Below, one piece after another: positions 32,958 through 40,000 of a stretch of DNA of 40,000 bases. The stretch spans positions 1,506 through 41,505 of the forward strand of contig MABA01000019.1 in NCBI GenBank assembly GCA_002162875.1. The letters run 5' to 3'. Made by a program: the position numbers and the translations under genes. A model generated the notes under the pieces. The model did not search any database. It had not been told where the DNA came from and saw nothing but the letters and a program-made list of their open reading frames with translations. Position 1 is the first letter of the stretch. The number at the start of each line of letters is the position of its first letter. This DNA is from Rhodobacterales bacterium 52_120_T64. Its GTDB lineage: Bacteria > Pseudomonadota > Alphaproteobacteria > Rhodobacterales > Rhodobacteraceae.

Positions 32958-33044
32958 GCTGATAGTTCACAAATATTGAAGGCCCGCACAATCGTTGCGG
33001 GGGTATAGTGATATCCGCCAATAAATACATTGGTCCACAAAATG

Positions 33045-33076
33045 AGGCCCGCACTTTGCAGTGTGGGCCTTGTTTA
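33045..33076 (+). terminator. Rho-independent-type terminator after the ppi operon (AGGCCCGCAC TTTGCA GTGTGGGCCT + TGTTTAT)
   Basis: A 10-bp stem with one G-U pair, followed by a T-rich tail, read directly. A weaker hairpin CCCGCA/TGCGGG lies at 32983-33001. Confidence 0.6.
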
Positions 33077-33254
33077 TGATTGTTGCGAAGGCAATCGAGG
33101 CCGTCGGTTCATCGGCTAGCGGTTAATCCAACCTTACTTAAATTCGATTGAGTTTGCAGGACACTCTGCACATACGATACACAAATCTTGATAGTTCTCA
33201 ATTCGAACTAACCACGGAACGTATCCAAGTTGGACTAAAAGTTGCGCAAAATTA

Positions 33255-33611
33255 TTAAAACGCCAATCCCCGTGCCTCCAGTGCACTCCAGCAATTTATG
33301 GATATTGGCGAGGGGTGAGGCAACACTGAGCGTACAAACACATGTGTTTTTCCAAGTTCACGAACCTCAGCTTTCAAGGTTTCAATGGCTCTTGGAGCAG
33401 TTGGAACTGGGTCCCAAAGCTTATTCCGGCAATCGATGCCAGCAATTTCTATTGCTGAATGCGGCGCACTATCGACAACTTGAACATCGTCAACTCGGAT
33501 ATTTGTAGTCCCAACTATATTGATCGGATCGCTAGCATTTGTGTTAGGCGCGGTTGACCCACATGCTCCAAGCGCTAGAGCTGCAAGCAGAGCGAAAACA
33601 GTTTTGTTCAT
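33255..33611 (-). CDS. Putative lipoprotein, hypothetical (first gene of the AT-richer accessory region)
   Basis: Lipobox LALGAC in MNKTVFALLAALALGACGS. Length is 118 aa with two further Cys residues. It has a faint RcsF-like pattern, but I cannot support that assignment. Confidence 0.6.
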   Translation of the reverse strand: MNKTVFALLAALALGACGSTAPNTNASDPINIVGTTNIRVDDVQVVDSAPHSAIEIAGIDCRNKLWDPVPTAPRAIETLKAEVRELGKTHVFVRSVLPHPSPISINCWSALEARGLAF

Positions 33612-33751
33612 TTAACTTTCCCTAATTGTCTAAAATCGCGCAACTAATTTCTTGCGTGATTCTGGGCATTATACTTACAATGTTTTCAATTTGAACGCTC
33701 TCTTGTCAAATCAGCCTATTGGGCCCCGTAAGCGCTGATGTCAGACTCTTG

Positions 33752-33773
33752 ATGCGGCTCCGGACGGGAACGG
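33752..33773. repeat. Left copy of gapped direct repeat ATGCGGCTCC-GG-ACGGGAACGG
   Basis: Exact 10-mer ATGCGGCTCC at 33752-33761 and 39085-39094. A second block reads ACGGGAACGG here (33764-33773) and ACGGGAGCAACGG at 39111-39123. Confidence 0.3.
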
Positions 33774-33867
33774 ATACGATGTTTCCAAATTCAAAAATTC
33801 ACTCTAACCTATGATTTAAATTGTACGGGAACTTGGGTACTATTTTGGCACTTGATTGGCCGCCTCG

Positions 33868-34968
33868 CTAATTATTTACCCGCAACTCCAAATTAACCCC
33901 ATGCACCACTCTCCGAGCCAATTCCGGACTAAGGCGACAAACCCCATTCTTCCGCAAGATAAAGTCCGCCCCAGAAAATACTTCTTCACTAACAAGTTTT
34001 ATAACTACCCGATCCACAACGGGCCTCAGTGGTTCCATCAAATCAAACACAAGTGAATGACTGTCAGGATTAACACTACTATGCAGCATCCCTCGTGCTG
34101 GATCATAACCATCGGCAATCACTCCAATGCGCACATGCGCTTCGAGCAGACTATAAGCATAGTTCAGCATGGCGTTCACAGGATGTGTGGCTCCACCATT
34201 TCGCACTCGTGCTCTTGTGTTCAATGACGACCGTGAAAAGAATTTCTGCCATTCAACGTGTACTGGGTAACGGGTTTGCGCTTTCCATTTGATTGGTAAC
34301 GCCCGCCAAGCGAAAAAATAGCCAGCAGCAACCCTACCTTCAATGGCTTGCAGTTCTCCGATTGTGGCTGGTGGTGATACTCCTAAGTCACGGATGGCGA
34401 TTTCCGCAGCTATTATTGCATTTTCTCTGGATTGCGATGGCGTCAGTAATTCCTTCAAGTTTACTAGGGTCGCTTTTGCCTTTGCGCGCATTAGCGGAGC
34501 CGCAAACTTAACCCGATCCAGTTCTGAAGACTGTGCAGAGATTTGCCAAGCTTGCTTTTTCGGATCAATTAATCCGCCTGATGCACTGATGAATGAAATC
34601 GGATAACCATCCCACTTTAACCGGATGAGAGTTACCTTCTGCTCTGTTAGCCAATCGAGAGTGTCGAACGTTATGTGGCCGGAGCCATCAACCAGTATAA
34701 TTCTGGCTGGTAATGTGAGATCACCCTTAAAGAACCGAAAGGCAGTTTTATTGCTCGGATAATGGGTATGTCCGTCCGTGATTAGTAAGGTATTTTTATC
34801 AACCTTCAGAGAAATACCGTGTCCGGTGAGGATTATCGGAGTTTTTTGTTTTTCCCGTCTTTTCTTTTTTGGAGTATGGTTTTGAATATTTTCCAACCAA
34901 TATTTTGAGCGTTCCGCCCATTCGTCAGTTTGGATTTTTTGTTCAATTTCGATAGTTGAAATAAACAT
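33868..34968 (-). CDS. cas1: Cas1 homologue, stand-alone (casposase-like integrase/endonuclease)
   Basis: ILTGHGISLKVDKNTLLI, IILVDGSGHITFDTLDWL, AIEGRVAAGYF (Glu), HPVNAMLNYAYSLLE, ARGMLHS (His) and SLVFDLMEPLRPVVDR (Asp). This is the Cas1 motif order with the catalytic E/H/D triad. ATG 34968 is preceded by GGAGGG at 7 nt. Confidence 0.85.
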   Translation of the reverse strand: MFISTIEIEQKIQTDEWAERSKYWLENIQNHTPKKKRREKQKTPIILTGHGISLKVDKNTLLITDGHTHYPSNKTAFRFFKGDLTLPARIILVDGSGHITFDTLDWLTEQKVTLIRLKWDGYPISFISASGGLIDPKKQAWQISAQSSELDRVKFAAPLMRAKAKATLVNLKELLTPSQSRENAIIAAEIAIRDLGVSPPATIGELQAIEGRVAAGYFFAWRALPIKWKAQTRYPVHVEWQKFFSRSSLNTRARVRNGGATHPVNAMLNYAYSLLEAHVRIGVIADGYDPARGMLHSSVNPDSHSLVFDLMEPLRPVVDRVVIKLVSEEVFSGADFILRKNGVCRLSPELARRVVHGVNLELRVNN

Positions 34969-35349
34969 TCTTTCACCCTCCAAATACCATATATTTTCGG
35001 AAATTATTTCCTTCCATAATTATACCTAATTTACTGTTAAATAACACTAATAATGCAGATAATATTATAAATTATTAGCAAAATATTAATTAAAGTGTTT
35101 CTGAAATTGGCAACCAAAAAACGTTTAACTTTGACTAGAGCCGATACTAATTTGATGTCGAATATTTGTTCAACTTTAATATTTGATAACTCCCGAATAT
35201 TTACCTCGAAGTGCCAAGTCCCAACTGATTCGTATTTGTGTCAATCCCGTTTCAAGCAAAAAGGCCCCCTGCCGCAACGCGTGTTCGCAGTCCATTTTTA
35301 ATCTCGAATCGTTGGCACTCCGTCGACGAAAATTAGCGAGACTAAAACT
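34969..35349. promoter_or_regulatory. Very AT-rich divergent control region between cas1 and the HTH-HNH-polB operon
   Basis: 381 nt with no ORF. It contains the 13-bp perfect palindrome GGAAATTATTTCC (34999-35011) and repeated AATATT cores (35061, 35082, 35161, 35178, 35196), including CGAATATTT twice. Confidence 0.5.
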
Positions 35350-35922
35350 ATGGCACGCAAACGTGACTACAAGGCAGAATACAAAAGGCGGATTGAACGT
35401 GGCTTGAAGGGCGGGTTATCTCGTTCACAAGCACGGGGGCATCCGTCAATCTTGGAAGTCGGAGTTTCCGGCTCATCGACTCCCGAACACAAAGAACAAT
35501 TGGGGGAAGCTCTTAAAGAGCTTCGCAGAGGTTCTACTCAGAAGGCAGCTGCACGTTCAGCTGGTGTATCGGTCGAGCGTTTTCGGAAATTCATCTACAG
35601 CAACAAACTAGCAGAACGAGATGGCCAATACTGGACCATGACGGATGAAAGACCCCGTCGTGTTCCTATCATTCATCGCGGTGAAACCAAGTCAGTAACC
35701 GTTCCGAGCTTTGCAGAGGCCAAGAAGTCCGGAGAATACTTTGAGGCTGTCGGGCAATTCCTCCGAACCAACTTCATAACCCACCTCGAACCTTTTGATG
35801 GAGATGGCCTGACGAATGTTCAAGGCAAGTTCTTCCAGTTCGAAACCGACCCGAATGCCCTCTATTGGCACGATGCTCAAGACAACCCCGACTTTCACGA
35901 AATCTATCAAATAGTCAATTAA
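35350..35922 (+). CDS. Helix-turn-helix DNA-binding protein, hypothetical
   Basis: The N-terminus is basic (MARKRDYKAEYKRRIERGLKGGLSRSQARGHP). There is an HTH-like segment STQKAAARSAGVSVERFRKFI. It is the first gene of the operon ending in polB. Confidence 0.6.
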   Translation: MARKRDYKAEYKRRIERGLKGGLSRSQARGHPSILEVGVSGSSTPEHKEQLGEALKELRRGSTQKAAARSAGVSVERFRKFIYSNKLAERDGQYWTMTDERPRRVPIIHRGETKSVTVPSFAEAKKSGEYFEAVGQFLRTNFITHLEPFDGDGLTNVQGKFFQFETDPNALYWHDAQDNPDFHEIYQIVN

Positions 35923-35933
35923 AGGAGAATCCA

Positions 35934-36311
35934 ATGACTAATAACTATCACGATGAAGAAACCCGACGCGAAAAAGACTATCGGCGACTTCGAACACGCA
36001 ATCCGATTTGCGTAGGTTGCGGATACAGTGATCATCCAGCAGCACTGGAACTCGCACATATTGCACCGCGTAAATTCCACGATGATGGAGTTGTTTTGTG
36101 CAGCAATTGCCACCGGGCACAAAGCGACACCGAAAAGGATTATTCCTATTCACCACAATCCGACAATCCGCAGATGGAGACAATAGGTCGTTATCTATTG
36201 GCACTGTCAGAGTTCTTTCAAATGATTGCGACCAGGATGTCCGAGTACGGGCAGTGGTTGTTGGAGCAATCTGAGAATGTTCTACCGTACAATCCGGAGG
36301 AAGTAGCATGA
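35934..36311 (+). CDS. HNH (His-Me finger) endonuclease
   Basis: CVGCG...ELAHIAPRKFHDDGVVLCSNCHRAQSD shows the CxxC...H...N/H...CxxCH arrangement. AAGGAG precedes ATG 35934. Its stop overlaps the polB ATG (ATGA). Confidence 0.75.
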   Translation: MTNNYHDEETRREKDYRRLRTRNPICVGCGYSDHPAALELAHIAPRKFHDDGVVLCSNCHRAQSDTEKDYSYSPQSDNPQMETIGRYLLALSEFFQMIATRMSEYGQWLLEQSENVLPYNPEEVA

Positions 36312-38377
36312 ACGAGCAATCCCCATCCGAGCTCTTCGTGCGGGCCTATACGGAGAGGCCAGGGGCTCGCGCTGTAGCGGCCAAGCCCCGCTTAAGTGTA
36401 GATGACACCCCGTCACCCTGGACGTTGACCTTCGATTGTGAAACCACCGTTGATGCGGCTCAGACTTTACGTGTTGGTGTGTTCCAGGTGCGAAAGTCCG
36501 GAAAGCTAAAACAGGAGGGATTATTCTTCAATCCACAATATTTGTGTGACGACGACATTGGCGAGATCGAGAGCTTCGCGGAAGTTAACAATCTTGAGAT
36601 TCTAACAACCGAAGAATTCCGAAAAGATATTTTCCTCAAAATCGTCTATCACAGGTGCGGATTGCTTGTTGGGTTTAACTTACCGTTCGACATATCCCGT
36701 ATTGCAATTGGTCATGGCCCGGCCCGTGGTTCGTTGCGAGGTGGTTTTACGTTCAAATTGAACGAATACAAAAGTGAGCCGCAGGTTCGTGTAAAGCATC
36801 TGAGTGCAAGGGCAGCCCTGATGGACTTTGCTGCGCCTGGCAATCTGGAAACTGGTCGGGGTATGCGCAATAGAGGGTTTAAGACACCACATCATCGTGG
36901 ATATTTTCTTGATGTGAAAACATTTGCGGCTTCTTTAACAAGCCGAAGCTTCTCGCTTGGAAGCCTGTGCAAATACCTTGGAACGACGACACAAAAGCTG
37001 GATACGGACGAACACGGTGGAGCAATCACTCCCGAGTATCTCGAATATGCACGTGCTGACGTTCAGGCAACGTGGGAGTGCTACGAAAAGCTACAAAAGC
37101 AATACGACGATCACGGTCTGGAAACAGCGAGCCACCGCATTCTGAGCGAAGCTAGTATTGGTAAGGCTTACTTGAAGCAGATGAATATCCAACCGCTGCT
37201 GGCTAATCTACCGGACTTTCCACGGGAGATATTCGGCAAGATAATGTGTGCATATTACGGAGGCCGTGCAGAGGTTCGTATTAGTCGAACCCCAACGCAA
37301 GTTCTCTACTGTGATTTTAAATCCATGTACCCAACCGTTAGCGCACTTATGGGGCTCTGGTCGTTTGTTGTCGCGGAAAACCTGAGCATAACCGACACCA
37401 CATCCGAAACGCAGGCTTTTCTAAATGAGGTTTGTCTGGAAGATATGCAAAAACCACACACCTGGAAACGGCTCCGAACTTTGGTACGCATTCGCACCGA
37501 TAACGACTTGCTGCCTGTTCGCGCCAAATACAATGGAAATACCAATACCATTGGTCTCAACCATATCTCCAATGATCAGCCGCTTTGGTACACTTTGGCG
37601 GATTGCGTCGTGTCCAAGCTTCTAACTGGTAAAACACCTATCATTGATGAGGCAATGACGTTTGAACCTGGGGATGTTCAATCCAACCTTCAACCAATCG
37701 ACTTGTTTGGAAACCCGGATTACAGGGTCGATCCTTCAAAAGAGGATGTCTTCACCCGGTTCATTGATCTTCGGGATGACGCCAGGGAAAAGGGTGATCC
37801 GGTACAACAGGCAATCAAGATTATAGCGAACTCTACCAGTTACGGAATCTTTATCGAAGTTAACCGGGACGATGCACCAAAGCCGGAACCTTTGGATGTT
37901 TATGGACCAGATGGACACTCACTCAACACCAACACAACAGCCGTTGAAGAGCCCGGGCGATACTTTCACCCGTTGCTCGGTACGCTGATTACCGGAGCTG
38001 CCAGGCTAATGCTGGCCCTTTCGGAGCGAGTGGCAGAAGACCAGGGTTTGAACTGGGTGTTCTGCGATACGGACAGTCTAGCAATGGCGAAACCGGATGA
38101 CATGAGCCAGGAACAATTCTACGAAAATGGCCAAACCGTAGTTGATTGGTTCGAGGGGCTTAACCCGTACAAAAAGCCAGGCTCAATATTGGAAATGGAG
38201 GACGCCAACTACAGCCCAAATACTAAGATACTAGAACCGCTTTATTGTTTGGCCATCTCCTCGAAGAGATACGCACTCTATAACAAGACTAAATCTGGTC
38301 AGATAATCCTCGGCACATGGCCTGGGTCATTTGATGGCTCCGTATACAGAAGACGATGCGCCCGATATCGGCGTTGA
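36308..38377 (+). CDS. polB: Family B DNA polymerase, fragment 1 of 2 (3'-5' exonuclease + palm/fingers); reading frame broken near 38306-38312
   Basis: ExoI FDCET, ExoII GFNLPFD, ExoIII YARAD, motif A DFKSMYPT, motif B KIIANSTSYG, motif C FCDTDS and a KxY-type SSKRYAL. GGAGGA precedes the ATG. The last ~22 codons (GTWPGSFDGSVYRRRCARYRR) look like out-of-frame read-through. Confidence 0.88.
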   Translation: MNEQSPSELFVRAYTERPGARAVAAKPRLSVDDTPSPWTLTFDCETTVDAAQTLRVGVFQVRKSGKLKQEGLFFNPQYLCDDDIGEIESFAEVNNLEILTTEEFRKDIFLKIVYHRCGLLVGFNLPFDISRIAIGHGPARGSLRGGFTFKLNEYKSEPQVRVKHLSARAALMDFAAPGNLETGRGMRNRGFKTPHHRGYFLDVKTFAASLTSRSFSLGSLCKYLGTTTQKLDTDEHGGAITPEYLEYARADVQATWECYEKLQKQYDDHGLETASHRILSEASIGKAYLKQMNIQPLLANLPDFPREIFGKIMCAYYGGRAEVRISRTPTQVLYCDFKSMYPTVSALMGLWSFVVAENLSITDTTSETQAFLNEVCLEDMQKPHTWKRLRTLVRIRTDNDLLPVRAKYNGNTNTIGLNHISNDQPLWYTLADCVVSKLLTGKTPIIDEAMTFEPGDVQSNLQPIDLFGNPDYRVDPSKEDVFTRFIDLRDDAREKGDPVQQAIKIIANSTSYGIFIEVNRDDAPKPEPLDVYGPDGHSLNTNTTAVEEPGRYFHPLLGTLITGAARLMLALSERVAEDQGLNWVFCDTDSLAMAKPDDMSQEQFYENGQTVVDWFEGLNPYKKPGSILEMEDANYSPNTKILEPLYCLAISSKRYALYNKTKSGQIILGTWPGSFDGSVYRRRCARYRR

Positions 38378-39047
38378 AACCATTCTACCATCTTCAGAAA
38401 CCTGTGTTATGCGCTGGCAGCATGATTTGTGGATCAACATCATTCGTGCCGCCTTAGGAGATACCCCAAATATTGTTCCTCTCGATTATCACCTGGCATT
38501 CAAAAATCCATGTGTTAGCCGATACGGTGCCACGAGCCCGCATCTTCTGAAGTGGGTTGATACGTGGAATGACGGTAAGCCTTATGAGCAGCAGATCAAA
38601 CCGTTTGGGTTTTTAATGGCGTTTACTGCTAGGTCAGGGCCGCTAGCTAAACCGAAAAATCCGGAGGTTGTCGATCCTACGCAACGCGGTCGACCTCCAA
38701 AGCTACAAAAGATCAAACCAATTGCTCCATTTGATCTCGATAACATGTCTGCCGTCTCAAAAGCGTTTGACCGGGATACAGGCAAGGCCGTTTGTCGAGA
38801 TGAACTCAAGACATATGAAGAGGCTCTAGCGCAGTTCCATCTTAGTACTGAGGACAAGTTCCTGAACGGGGACTTTGTAAATGTCGGGGAAACCAGGCGG
38901 CGGCATATTGTTGTTTCAGATCTCGGGCTGATTGGGAAAGAAGCTAACAAGGTTGGTTCTAGTGGTGAGGCTGATCCGATCGCGATGGCTCAGGTTTCGT
39001 ACGGAAATACTGAACAACTTATTAATCAAAGTAAGTGCAAATTATAA
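38310..39047 (+). CDS. polB: Family B DNA polymerase, fragment 2 of 2 (C-terminal/thumb region) in the +1 frame
   Basis: The frame opens right after a stop at 38304-38306 as SSAHGLGHLMAPY... It has no Shine-Dalgarno sequence and no ATG of its own (the track uses the internal TTG 38331). It continues for 245 aa to TAA at 39045-39047. Confidence 0.7.
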   Translation, partial: SAHGLGHLMAPYTEDDAPDIGVETILPSSETCVMRWQHDLWINIIRAALGDTPNIVPLDYHLAFKNPCVSRYGATSPHLLKWVDTWNDGKPYEQQIKPFGFLMAFTARSGPLAKPKNPEVVDPTQRGRPPKLQKIKPIAPFDLDNMSAVSKAFDRDTGKAVCRDELKTYEEALAQFHLSTEDKFLNGDFVNVGETRRRHIVVSDLGLIGKEANKVGSSGEADPIAMAQVSYGNTEQLINQSKCKL

Positions 39048-39084
39048 GTTGGGAGTATTTGGAATGTCCAGTTGTCCATCAGGA

Positions 39085-39123
39085 ATGCGGCTCCAATTCG
39101 ATATAGAGAAACGGGAGCAACGG
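39085..39123. repeat. Right copy of gapped direct repeat ATGCGGCTCC-(16 nt)-ACGGGAGCAACGG
   Basis: See the left copy at 33752-33773. This copy lies 38 nt after the polB stop. Confidence 0.3.
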
Positions 39124-39253
39124 TGAGTAGGCTATCCGTCAAAATGAAAAAAAGTGTATATGCTGAGCGATGATTTCAACGATGGCATTGCAATCATGGA
39201 TAGAAACTGCTTTTCAGTATTGTGCGGCTGTATAATCCGCAACGTACAGAAGG

Positions 39254-40000
39254 TTGAAAATTTTGAAAAGTCTTGCCAAGCATTTGAACGAGCCTGAGAC
39301 CATCATATTTGTAGGCTCGGGAGTGTCTCGATGGTCTGGCTTGCCTTCTTGGTCAGGAATGATTTCTGAACTTGCTGACTTTATGGACGAATCTGGCAAA
39401 AACTCTGAGCTTGTACGGAAAGAACAAAGTGACGGCGAACTTCTTCAGGCTGCTAGCTATGCTTTCGATCAACTGACACAACCACAAATTGGAGAGTTCA
39501 TTCGCCACTCCTGCCGCTATGGAACAGCAAAGCCCCATGAAATCCATAAGAAGATAGTTGAACTCGGCCCAACCAGCTTTGTAACAACGAACTATGATAA
39601 CCTCATTGAAGAAGCGCTACGTACATTTAGGCCGGATACATTTTTTGCTCCGCCTGTTACTAATTGCCATTTAAGTGAAATGGCAAGTGTGGCTCACGCC
39701 AAAAAATCAGGATTTATATTCAAACCTCACGGAGATGCATCCGACGCAAAAAGTATTATTCTTACTCGAGAGCAATATAGGAAGTTATTGCCTCAAGGCG
39801 AATGGAATCGCGCACTAGAGACCTTAAAAACGTTAATGATTAGTCGACCGGTTTTGTACGTGGGGTTTGGCCTAAGGGATCCAGATTTCCTGTATTTGAG
39901 AGATCTACTTACAAACACTTACGAAGGTGCTGTCCGAGATCACTACGCAATTTTGCCAGACATGAGTGAGCCGGAGATCGACTATTGGAGACGTGTCTGA
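39254..40000 (+). CDS. SIR2-like (SIR2_2 / defence-associated NADase-type) domain protein
   Basis: IIFVGSGVSRWSGLPSWSGMI, FVTTNYDNLIEEAL, FKPHGD...IILTREQY and PVLYVGFGLRDPDF follow the SIR2_2 motif order. The start is TTG 39254 or TTG 39263. An in-frame TGA occupies the last three bases of the window. Confidence 0.7.
   Translation: MKILKSLAKHLNEPETIIFVGSGVSRWSGLPSWSGMISELADFMDESGKNSELVRKEQSDGELLQAASYAFDQLTQPQIGEFIRHSCRYGTAKPHEIHKKIVELGPTSFVTTNYDNLIEEALRTFRPDTFFAPPVTNCHLSEMASVAHAKKSGFIFKPHGDASDAKSIILTREQYRKLLPQGEWNRALETLKTLMISRPVLYVGFGLRDPDFLYLRDLLTNTYEGAVRDHYAILPDMSEPEIDYWRRV

What the first reader, a model, noticed from the sequence alone, without database searches (positions are those of the whole stretch)
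33868..39047. Stand-alone Cas1 + family B DNA polymerase + HNH + HTH: a casposon-like self-synthesizing element (or domesticated derivative) in an alphaproteobacterial chromosome
Seen in the sequence: a 366-aa Cas1 homologue with the catalytic Glu/His/Asp intact lies on the minus strand. Divergent from it is a tightly coupled operon of an HTH protein, an HNH nuclease and PolB. The HNH stop overlaps the polB ATG as ATGA. PolB shows all exonuclease motifs (FDCET, NLPFD, YARAD) and all polymerase motifs (DFKSMYPT, KIIANSTSYG, FCDTDS, KRY). No cas2, no other cas gene and no CRISPR repeat array occur anywhere in the 40 kb. Established knowledge: Cas1 encoded next to a PolB without CRISPR defines casposons (Krupovic et al. 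2014), which frequently also carry HNH and HTH genes. As far as I recall, most described examples are archaeal and only a small family is bacterial. Inference: this is a compact bacterial casposon, possibly decaying given the polB frameshift, or a Cas1-PolB module retained in a defence island. The host lineage, the minimal gene set, the divergent layout and the adjacent SIR2 gene may not match described families. That is the part worth testing for novelty.
Basis: partly seen in the sequence, partly recalled or inferred. Interest (0 to 1): 0.85.

Follow-up and report, generated by a model that had tools for sequence, protein, structure and literature searches.

The report
Bacterial casposon end, with broken polymerase
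The Cas1–HTH–HNH–PolB cluster is the core of a real but already known kind of mobile element, a family 3 bacterial casposon, inserted into a gene's terminator hairpin and carrying defence-type cargo, with its polymerase gene broken by an 11-base deletion.

Summary
The genes are there as described. Cas1 scores Pfam 2.6e-34. PolB has all its motifs, and an HNH and an HTH protein are present. The window holds no CRISPR array.

The cluster is not a compact or new type of element. The Cas1 is 45% identical (E 1e-92) to the casposase of HenMar-C1, the published family 3 casposon of the alphaproteobacterium Henriciella marina. About 55 proteobacterial genome loci share the same divergent layout.

The family has inverted ends that start 5'-GGGGTATAG, with 12-17 bp target duplications (mode 15), mostly in terminator hairpins. 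The window holds exactly one such end, at 33000-33016. It is preceded by the 15-bp duplication CGCACAATCGTTGCG in the terminator of the prolyl isomerase gene.

The matching other junction lies on another contig (L098). Close relatives (L124-L126) have the uninterrupted empty site.

The element therefore runs from 33000 past 40000. ORF118 and the SIR2 gene are cargo. Adding the 3.2 kb seen on L098, it is at least 10.3 kb long.

Its polB carries an 11-nt deletion that intact relatives lack, so this copy probably cannot replicate itself.

Verdict: a new member of a known kind, with useful family-level by-products.

The parts
32985..32999 (.). Left copy of the 15-bp target-site duplication, CGCACAATCGTTGCG. 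It is the core of the terminator hairpin downstream of the prolyl isomerase gene.
   Evidence: The same 15-mer abuts the other inverted repeat in L098. The uninterrupted hairpin GGCCCGCACATATTTTGCGGGCC+T7 is present in relatives L124 and L125.
33000..33069 (+). Terminal inverted repeat on the Cas1 side. It starts 5'-GGGGTATAGTGATATCC and contains an internal hairpin at 33047-33070.
   Evidence: This is the only match to the family end motif in the window (0.12 expected). Homology to the repeats of L011, L036, L112 and L114 stops exactly at 33000, and the outside flanks are unrelated. It is 86% identical to the L098 repeat.
33255..33611 (-). ORF118, a small lipoprotein-like cargo gene downstream of cas1. 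Its function is unknown.
   Evidence: It lies between the inverted repeat and cas1. It has only a weak lipoprotein signal hit. No homologue was found in the other elements.
33868..34968 (-). Casposase (a Cas1 homologue), 366 aa, protein accession OUS05334.1.
   Evidence: Pfam E 2.6e-34. It is 45% identical (E 1e-92) to the HenMar-C1 Cas1. The best solved relative is the M. mazei casposase 6opm, at 7.6e-36, against 5.7e-22 for the best CRISPR Cas1.
34969..35349 (.). Divergent intergenic region, presumably holding the promoters. In most relatives this position holds a fifth, variable gene that is absent here.
   Evidence: Close intact relatives L086, L114 and L119 also have a gap of about 400 nt.
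35350..35922 (+). ORF190, a conserved casposon protein with a helix-turn-helix region around residues 50-85.
   Evidence: Alignment of 22 orthologues. HTH_28/29/23 hits in 3-4 of the orthologues.
35934..36311 (+). HNH (His-Me finger) nuclease, 125 aa.
   Evidence: C26, C29, E39, H42, C56, C59 and H60 are invariant, and N58 nearly so, in 17 orthologues. The protein's own Pfam HNH hit is weak, E 0.0036.
36308..39047 (+). Family B DNA polymerase gene of the PolB_CDTDS type. An 11-nt deletion between 38309 and 38310 splits it into 689-aa and 238-aa ORFs.
39263..40000 (+). SIR2-like cargo gene, 245 aa, SIR2 domain only.
   Evidence: Pfam SIR2_2 at 7.2e-27. PADLOC ThsA-type SIR2 at 3.3e-29, covering only the SIR2 half of the model. 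It is absent from all other loci. It lies between the left repeat and the right junction seen on L098.

Best explanation
The window holds the Cas1-side 7 kb of a family 3 (HenMar-C1-like) casposon in Rhodobacterales bacterium 52_120_T64.

Shown:
- The element begins at 33000 with an inverted repeat that starts 5'-GGGGTATAG.
- It sits in the terminator hairpin between the convergent prolyl isomerase and zinc-dehydrogenase genes, with a 15-bp target duplication.
- Its other junction lies on another contig (L098).
- Relatives have the empty site.
- The core is casposase, HTH protein, HNH nuclease and PolB. ORF118 and SIR2 are cargo. In L098 a P-loop-type protein lies next to the far repeat.

Inferred from studied family 2 casposases:
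- A casposase oligomer uses the 3'-OH ends of the element (...CTATACCCC-3') to attack the two target strands about 15 bp apart.
- Here the two attacks are symmetric about the hairpin dyad, and gap repair creates the duplication.
- PolB is thought to copy the element. HNH and the HTH protein are thought to help end processing and site recognition.

Because polB carries an 11-nt frameshifting deletion that removes invariant residues, this copy is probably unable to replicate itself. It would be immobile or dependent on a helper.
For: Casposase identity.

Family layout: the same layout occurs in about 55 genome loci across Alpha-, Beta- and Gammaproteobacteria.

Family ends: flanking inverted repeats of roughly 25-510 nt occur in most loci. 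They share the motif GGGGTATAG..AT.TCC. Target duplications are 12-17 bp, mode 15, in 26 elements, and 21 of the 26 targets are stable hairpins.

Window end: there is a single motif at 33000-33016. Homology to related repeats stops at 33000.

Other junction: L098 carries the reverse-complement hairpin and the identical 15-mer. Its flank is syntenic with the empty sites.

Empty sites: L124, L125 and L126.

Mobility in the family: several genomes hold multiple copies, and some hold internally deleted copies.

polB: the deletion is shown, and the residues it removes are invariant.

Shared chemistry with family 2: 14-bp duplications, ends reading ...TATATCCC-3', and targets starting CGCA (PMC6977970).
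Against: - The far end is not on the window's contig. The stretch between position 40120 and the end of L098 is unseen, so continuity is inferred from the identical duplication and from synteny.
- No proper Cas1 or PolB phylogeny was built.
- No transposition, polymerase or nuclease activity has been shown for any family 3 element.
- Cas1, HNH and the HTH protein are intact while polB is broken, so some retained function cannot be excluded.
- The duplication length is ambiguous by ±2 bp because the G/C runs of hairpin and repeat merge.
Confidence: 0.88

Rival explanations
1. The module is domesticated. The Cas1-HTH-HNH-PolB genes are kept by the host, for example for defence or repair, inside a defence island and no longer act as a transposon.
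For: polB is broken while the other three core genes are intact. Defence-type genes sit beside the core here and across the family.
Against: The element has a recognisable end and a target duplication. Close relatives (93% and 85% identical prolyl isomerase) have the empty site, so the locus is not fixed. The family shows multiple copies, tandem ends and deletion derivatives.
Confidence: 0.06
2. The casposon ends between polB and SIR2. On this reading SIR2 and what follows belong to a separate neighbouring island, and the L098 junction belongs to a different variant of the insertion.
For: SIR2 is found in no other element. Assemblies from several samples break just after SIR2.
Against: No end motif, even allowing 2 mismatches, occurs anywhere from 33017 to 40000. 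The 120 nt of contig beyond the window also show no such end when read by eye. In relatives the cargo normally lies between polB and the repeat. The L098 flank continues the empty-site synteny directly after the duplication.
Confidence: 0.04
3. It is a remnant of a CRISPR-Cas adaptation module.
For: Public annotation names the protein 'CRISPR-associated endonuclease Cas1'.
Against: The window has no repeat array. No other cas-type gene was found in the element. The closest solved relative is a casposase. The protein is an orthologue of the HenMar-C1 casposase.
Confidence: 0.01

Closest known systems
HenMar-C1, family 3 casposon of Henriciella marina DSM 19595 (Krupovic et al. 2014, PMC4046053)
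   Same: The host is an alphaproteobacterium. The Cas1 has no fused domains and is 45% identical over 302 aa. It has an HNH gene and a conserved HTH gene. Its insertion is intergenic. Its published end, CCCCCTCTCCCGGATCGGGAGGGGATAAGGG, has the same plan as here: a hairpin followed by GGGG-TA/AT-rich sequence.
   Different: HenMar-C1 was reported as 16.3 kb with a 37-bp repeat and a 1-bp duplication. The larger family analysed here suggests the hairpin is the duplicated target, about 15 bp, rather than part of the repeat. The cargo differs. The window copy lacks the fifth gene and has a broken polB.
NitAL212-C1 and other family 3 casposons (Nitrosomonas)
   Same: Nitrosomonas loci L057 and L059 carry the same four-gene core and flanking repeats of 330-400 nt. 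The duplication published for NitAL212-C1 is 14 bp.
   Different: Their Cas1 is only 37-38% identical. The published NitAL212 Cas1 carries zinc-binding and HTH fusions. Their repeats are long and overlap the polB 3' end.
Family 2 casposons (Aciduliprofundum boonei, Methanosarcina mazei)
   Same: They combine Cas1, a CDTDS-type PolB, HNH and HTH proteins. Duplications are 14-15 bp. The element 3' end finishes in CCC, and some targets start CGCA.
   Different: The hosts are archaea. The Cas1 has a C-terminal HTH domain. The target is the 3' end of a tRNA gene rather than a terminator hairpin.
CRISPR-Cas adaptation module (Cas1-Cas2)
   Same: It uses a homologous integrase and duplicates a partly palindromic target, the repeat.
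   Different: The window has no array and no cas2 was found in the element. The duplication is about 15 bp rather than 25-50 bp. Whole elements are inserted, not spacers.
Pipolins (piPolB elements)
   Same: They are bacterial integrative elements that encode a PolB and carry defence cargo (PMC11551731, abstract).
   Different: Pipolins use tyrosine recombinases and a primer-independent PolB. Here the integrase is Cas1 and the PolB is of the CDTDS type.

Membership tests
Casposon superfamily | Cas1-family integrase with the catalytic residues intact | tested here: met
   Pfam E 2.6e-34. E210, H296, D309 and E312 are invariant in relatives. The best solved match is the casposase 6opm.
Casposon superfamily | Family B DNA polymerase gene in the same element | tested here: met
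   Pfam hit, all motifs present and a PolB fold. In this copy the gene is frameshifted.
Casposon superfamily | Terminal inverted repeats at both ends | tested here: met
   The left repeat lies at 33000-33069 in the window. The right repeat is seen only on a separate contig, L098, and is 86% identical. Both arms are seen on one contig in 26 related elements.
Casposon superfamily | Target-site duplication of about 14-15 bp | tested here: met
   The 15-mer CGCACAATCGTTGCG lies at both junctions. The single-copy hairpin is present in empty sites L124 and L125.
Casposon superfamily | No associated cas2 gene or CRISPR array | tested here: met
   No repeats in the 40 kb. The island ORFs are accounted for. 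Sequence beyond the contig end is unseen.
Casposon superfamily | Cas1-dependent integration activity | not testable with these tools
   This needs biochemistry. No family 3 casposase appeared as characterised in the papers searched.
Family 3 casposons | Cas1 groups with the bacterial family 3 casposases | tested here: inconclusive
   It is 45% identical (E 1e-92) to the HenMar-C1 Cas1 with almost no gaps. Henriciella and Nitrosomonas loci are in the same homologue set. No tree with outgroups was built.
Family 3 casposons | [quoted passage not shown] | tested here: met
Family 3 casposons | PolB related to the family 2 casposon polymerases (CDTDS motif C) | tested here: met
   C586, D587, T588, D589 and S590 are invariant. 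The group is defined in PMC7544198. The fold is about equally close to phi29 and to Pol alpha / Pol II, as that paper describes for this group.
CRISPR-Cas adaptation module | cas2 gene and a repeat-spacer array next to cas1 | tested here: not met
Thoeris (ThsA/ThsB), for the SIR2 cargo | SIR2-SLOG ThsA together with a TIR-domain ThsB | tested here: not met
   The protein is only 245 aa and matches just the SIR2 half of the ThsA models. No TIR-domain gene is visible. The downstream gene is cut off by the contig end.
Pipolins | piPolB plus a tyrosine recombinase, with direct-repeat att sites | tested here: not met
   No recombinase other than Cas1 lies in the visible element. The ends are inverted repeats with a 15-bp duplication.

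The most novel reading that the evidence does not exclude
HenMar-like family 3 casposons are a large and recently active bacterial transposon family. On this reading their casposase recognises palindromic intrinsic-terminator hairpins and cuts symmetrically about the dyad, duplicating about 15 bp. That regenerates a target hairpin on each side, so back-to-back insertions arise. The family also serves as a vehicle for anti-phage defence genes. It would be a living, testable analogue of the proposed step from casposon target duplication to palindromic CRISPR repeat.
Probability: 0.45. Interest if true: 0.65.

Novelty: new member of a known kind. Interest (0 to 1): 0.4.

Why it matters
For the window itself the result is a clean annotation. 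A gene publicly labelled 'CRISPR-associated Cas1' is in fact the integrase of a decaying casposon that carries defence-type cargo.

The wider value lies in the family picture that came out of checking it. Family 3 was described from only four elements, yet Cas1 and PolB homologue searches each returned over a thousand proteins. These elements share a conserved end motif. They insert with a duplication of about 15 bp, centred on the dyad where it could be judged. Most of the insertions are in terminator hairpins. They often carry defence systems.

This gives concrete substrates (an end sequence and a target) for the first biochemical test of a bacterial casposase. It also bears on how palindromic CRISPR repeats could have arisen.

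Tried and rejected
- Inverted-repeat and self-BLAST searches inside the window found no pair of ends. The end was recognised only after the family motif had been derived from other loci.
- Look-ups of the exact Cas1, prolyl isomerase, ORF118 and SIR2 proteins returned no contig that extends past SIR2.
- The idea that the four genes alone form the mobile unit was rejected. It came from the fact that nucleotide homology between copies covers only the coding regions. Flanking repeats were then found 0.1-8 kb further out.
- The absence of the fifth gene was considered as a sign of decay and dropped, because intact close relatives also lack it.
- A sequence search of the PolB against solved structures was uninformative (E 0.5).
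- Pfam and PADLOC gave nothing for the 872-aa L098 protein or for the two classes of fifth gene.
- No relatives were found in viral contigs or plasmid records.
- The 2017 casposon review (PMC5665730) is not held in the paper library.
- The region near tRNA-Gly (12-18 kb) was checked as a possible second island. It holds ordinary transporter and metabolic genes.


Full report
1. WHAT IS IN THE SEQUENCE

Cas1 lies at 33868-34968 (-), 366 aa. It matches Pfam Cas_Cas1 at 2.6e-34 and many PADLOC and NCBIfam Cas1 models.

Divergent from it are three genes:
- ORF190, at 35350-35922.
- A 125-aa HNH protein, at 35934-36311.
- polB, starting at 36308 and overlapping the HNH stop as ATGA.

polB matches Pfam DNA_pol_B_2 at 6.8e-10, and all the quoted exonuclease and polymerase motifs are in the translation.

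The HNH call is weak for this protein alone (E 0.0036). The zinc-finger His-Me pattern C26, C29, E39, H42, C56, N58, C59, H60 is nonetheless invariant or nearly so in 17 orthologues.

ORF190 has no Pfam hit of its own. Three or four of 22 orthologues hit HTH_28/29/23 (best 4e-5) over the conserved stretch around residues 50-85.

A complete 245-aa SIR2-domain gene follows at 39263-40000. Self-BLAST and Tandem Repeats Finder found no CRISPR-like array in the 40 kb.

2. THE POLYMERASE IS BROKEN

Homologues of the PolB are single proteins of 900-916 aa. In the window the gene is split into 689-aa and 238-aa ORFs.

Alignment with a relative that is 91% identical and intact (P0121 on L086) shows an 11-nt deletion between 38309 and 38310. 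The deletion removes residues R669, K670 and A671, which are invariant in the family, and shifts the frame.

The same split is called on the contigs shown from two different samples. It is therefore a property of this lineage and not a sequencing error.

3. WHICH FAMILY

The supplement of Krupovic et al. 2014 (PMC4046053) prints the Cas1 of HenMar-C1, the family 3 casposon of Henriciella marina. The window Cas1 aligns to it at 45% identity over 302 residues with a single one-residue gap, E 1e-92.

A profile of the family finds the Methanosarcina mazei casposase (6opm) as the best solved relative, at 7.6e-36. The best CRISPR Cas1 scores 5.7e-22.

The PolB motif C is CDTDS, invariant in 30 relatives. 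Kazlauskas et al. 2020 (PMC7544198) named a PolB_CDTDS group after this motif. That group includes the A. boonei casposon polymerase and is related to both the protein-primed and the main PolB groups. In keeping with this, an AlphaFold model (pLDDT 81.8) matches phi29 polymerase (1.5e-11) and Pol alpha / Pol II (about 3e-11) about equally.

4. THE LAYOUT IS THE FAMILY NORM

A scan of one genome per species returned 207 matches, of which 80 loci were kept. About 55 of those loci have the same arrangement: cas1 divergent from ORF190-HNH-polB.

The hosts include Hyphomonadaceae (among them Henriciella), Rhodobacterales, Rhodospirillaceae, Caulobacteraceae, Nitrosomonas, Burkholderiales and Gammaproteobacteria. 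PolB is intact in nearly all of them. SIR2 occurs in none.

Most loci have a fifth gene between ORF190 and cas1. It belongs to one of two unrelated classes, of about 225 aa or about 320 aa. The window and its closest intact relatives lack it.

5. ENDS OF THE FAMILY

Self-BLAST of the loci found inverted repeats flanking the core in most of them. Examples are 96 nt at 98% identity in L003, 129 nt in L005, and 396-513 nt in L057 and L052. The elements defined this way are 7.5-19 kb long.

The arms share a terminal motif, 5'-GGGGTATAG..AT.TCC, followed by an A-rich stretch.

Direct repeats of 12-17 bp (mode 15) abut the arms. The length is uncertain by about 2 bp because G/C runs of target and repeat merge.

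In 21 of 26 elements the reconstructed target is a stable hairpin (z < -2 against shuffles), often with A and T runs on either side, which is the form of an intrinsic terminator. Where it could be judged, the duplicated segment is centred on the dyad.

Non-palindromic targets give 14-15 bp. One insertion (L070) is at a tRNA 3' end.

Other signs of mobility in the family:
- Several genomes hold two or three copies.
- One Robiginitomaculum genome holds two copies of an internally deleted derivative.
- Two 1.0-1.2-kb elements have both ends and a duplication.
- Back-to-back ends that share one hairpin also occur.

6. THE WINDOW'S ELEMENT

The end motif occurs exactly once in the window, at 33000-33016 on the + strand, reading inward towards cas1. 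The chance expectation is 0.12.

The next 70 nt or so match the repeats of related elements (L011, L036, L112, L114 and others). The sequence outside 33000 is unrelated among them. GC content drops from about 0.51 to about 0.45 at this point. Assemblies of another sample break at 33004-33025, as expected at a repeated end.

Just outside the end lies the hairpin GGCCCGCACAATCGTTGCG, 23 nt after the stop of the prolyl isomerase gene.

A metagenome scan with the 20-mer end sequence found L098, part of a 680-kb contig. There an inward-reading repeat is preceded by the exact reverse complement of that hairpin plus a T-run. Read in the window's orientation the junction is ...CTATACCCC|CGCACAATCGTTGCG|GGCCTTTTTT. 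The 15-mer at 32985-32999 is therefore duplicated.

Relatives with 93% and 85% identical prolyl isomerases (L124, L125, L126) have no element. In them the isomerase gene is followed by a single terminator hairpin and a convergent zinc-dehydrogenase gene, and in L124 and L125 by a DUF3179 gene after that. The same two genes flank the L098 junction.

The window aligns to L124 up to position 33001, and L098 aligns from the other side. The two alignments overlap by the 19-nt hairpin. The hairpin loop in L098 matches the window and not L124, so L098 comes from the same lineage or the same insertion event.

The element therefore spans 33000 to beyond 40000. It contains ORF118, the four core genes and SIR2. 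At the far end it contains an 872-aa protein with a Walker A-like GAGKS motif and no family match. The visible parts add up to at least 10.3 kb. The middle is missing because every contig stops 22-120 nt after SIR2.

7. CARGO

A census covered 119 cargo ORFs from 26 delimited elements. It found the following:
- Lamassu LmuA and LmuB
- PifA
- KAP-NTPase / PDC-S20
- Type I and type II methyltransferases
- mad2
- TIR domains
- nSTAND1
- a Schlafen-like helicase

The SIR2 gene in the window fits this pattern of defence-type cargo. Its own function is untested, and it does not meet the definition of Thoeris.

8. MECHANISM

Shown here: the gene set, one end, the duplication, the empty sites and the polB lesion.

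Inferred from work on family 2 casposases (PMC6977970, PMC5137440): the casposase joins the 3'-OH ends of the element to the two target strands about 14-15 bp apart, and repair fills the gaps. The M. mazei element end (...TATATCCC-3') and the CGCA start of its target resemble what is seen here (...CTATACCCC-3' and CGCACAATCGTTGCG).

The roles of PolB (copying the element), HNH and the HTH protein remain hypotheses, even for the studied families. With polB broken, this copy is most likely immobile or dependent on a helper.

9. COMPARISON AND NOVELTY

This is a new member of a known kind, a family 3 casposon.

Some points appear to go beyond the published description, as far as the held literature shows:
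- The size of the family.
- The shared end motif.
- The re-reading of the HenMar-C1 'repeat' hairpin as a duplicated terminator target.
- The small non-autonomous derivatives.
- The breadth of defence cargo.

The 2017 review could not be read, so some of this may already be known.

No relatives were found in viral contigs or plasmid records.

Noticed in passing
L003-L082, between ORF190 and cas1 (e.g. L003 9268-9951, L018 8845-9858); window 34969-35349: Nearly all relatives carry a fifth gene in the divergent intergenic region. It belongs to one of two unrelated classes. One is about 225 aa in the operon direction (31 loci). The other is about 320 aa in the cas1 direction with an HTH-like N-terminus (19 loci). 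Neither has a Pfam match. The window and its closest relatives lack it. Between otherwise 92%-identical copies in one genome (L021 and L022) this region is not alignable.
   Followed up: partly
L092 4066-5112; L100 508-1727: These are 1.0-1.2-kb elements with both GGGGTATAG ends and a 13-15-bp duplication in a hairpin, but no cas1 or polB. They look like miniature non-autonomous casposon derivatives.
   Followed up: partly
L071 1-1672 and L076 7956-10620 (Robiginitomaculum sp. Faavne_M6_B16): Two 96%-identical copies of an internally deleted element lie in one genome, beside a degraded full copy (L068). In them polB residue ~581 onward is joined directly to cas1 residue ~198 onward.
   Followed up: partly
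L016 14110-14158; also L019 ~3830, L040 ~14700, L015 ~3320: Back-to-back inverted ends share a single hairpin. This indicates repeated insertion into the regenerated target, giving tandem or head-to-head elements or remnants.
   Followed up: no
HenMar-C1 published ends (PMC4046053 supplement): The published 37-bp 'repeat' with a 1-bp duplication consists of a hairpin whose loop is inverted between the two arms, followed by GGGGATAAGGG. By analogy with 26 elements here, the hairpin is probably a duplicated target of about 15 bp and not part of the repeat.
   Followed up: partly
window 40000 plus 120 nt (L001 1-120): All assemblies stop 22-120 nt after the SIR2 stop. The stretch holds a perfect 14-bp inverted repeat (GTTTCTGTCTCATC ... 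GATGAGACAGAAAC) that overlaps the start of an ORF reading MRQKPGTRRTASEK. This may be a repeated or variable sequence that breaks assembly.
   Followed up: no
L098 7803-10421 (-): An 872-aa protein with a Walker A-like motif (GLPGAGKS) lies next to the far repeat. It has no Pfam or PADLOC match and may be uncharacterised defence cargo.
   Followed up: partly
L013 vs L015 (same genome): Identity between two copies is mosaic. cas1 is 93% identical and ORF190 90%, but most of polB is only 74%. This suggests recombination between elements. A third locus (L020) has cas1 alone, next to a 915-nt repeat that is 99% identical at three places.
   Followed up: no
window 33047-33070: A second GC-rich hairpin (GGCCCGCACTTTGCAGTGTGGGCC) lies inside the inverted repeat. 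It is conserved in the repeats of related elements (L011, L093, L103, L107, L114). Its role is unknown; it could be a terminator or a binding site.
   Followed up: no
26 delimited elements in L003-L089: The cargo is rich in defence-type genes: Lamassu, PifA, KAP NTPase/PDC-S20, restriction-modification methylases, mad2, TIR and nSTAND1. Many of the proteins are 900-1500 aa.
   Followed up: partly
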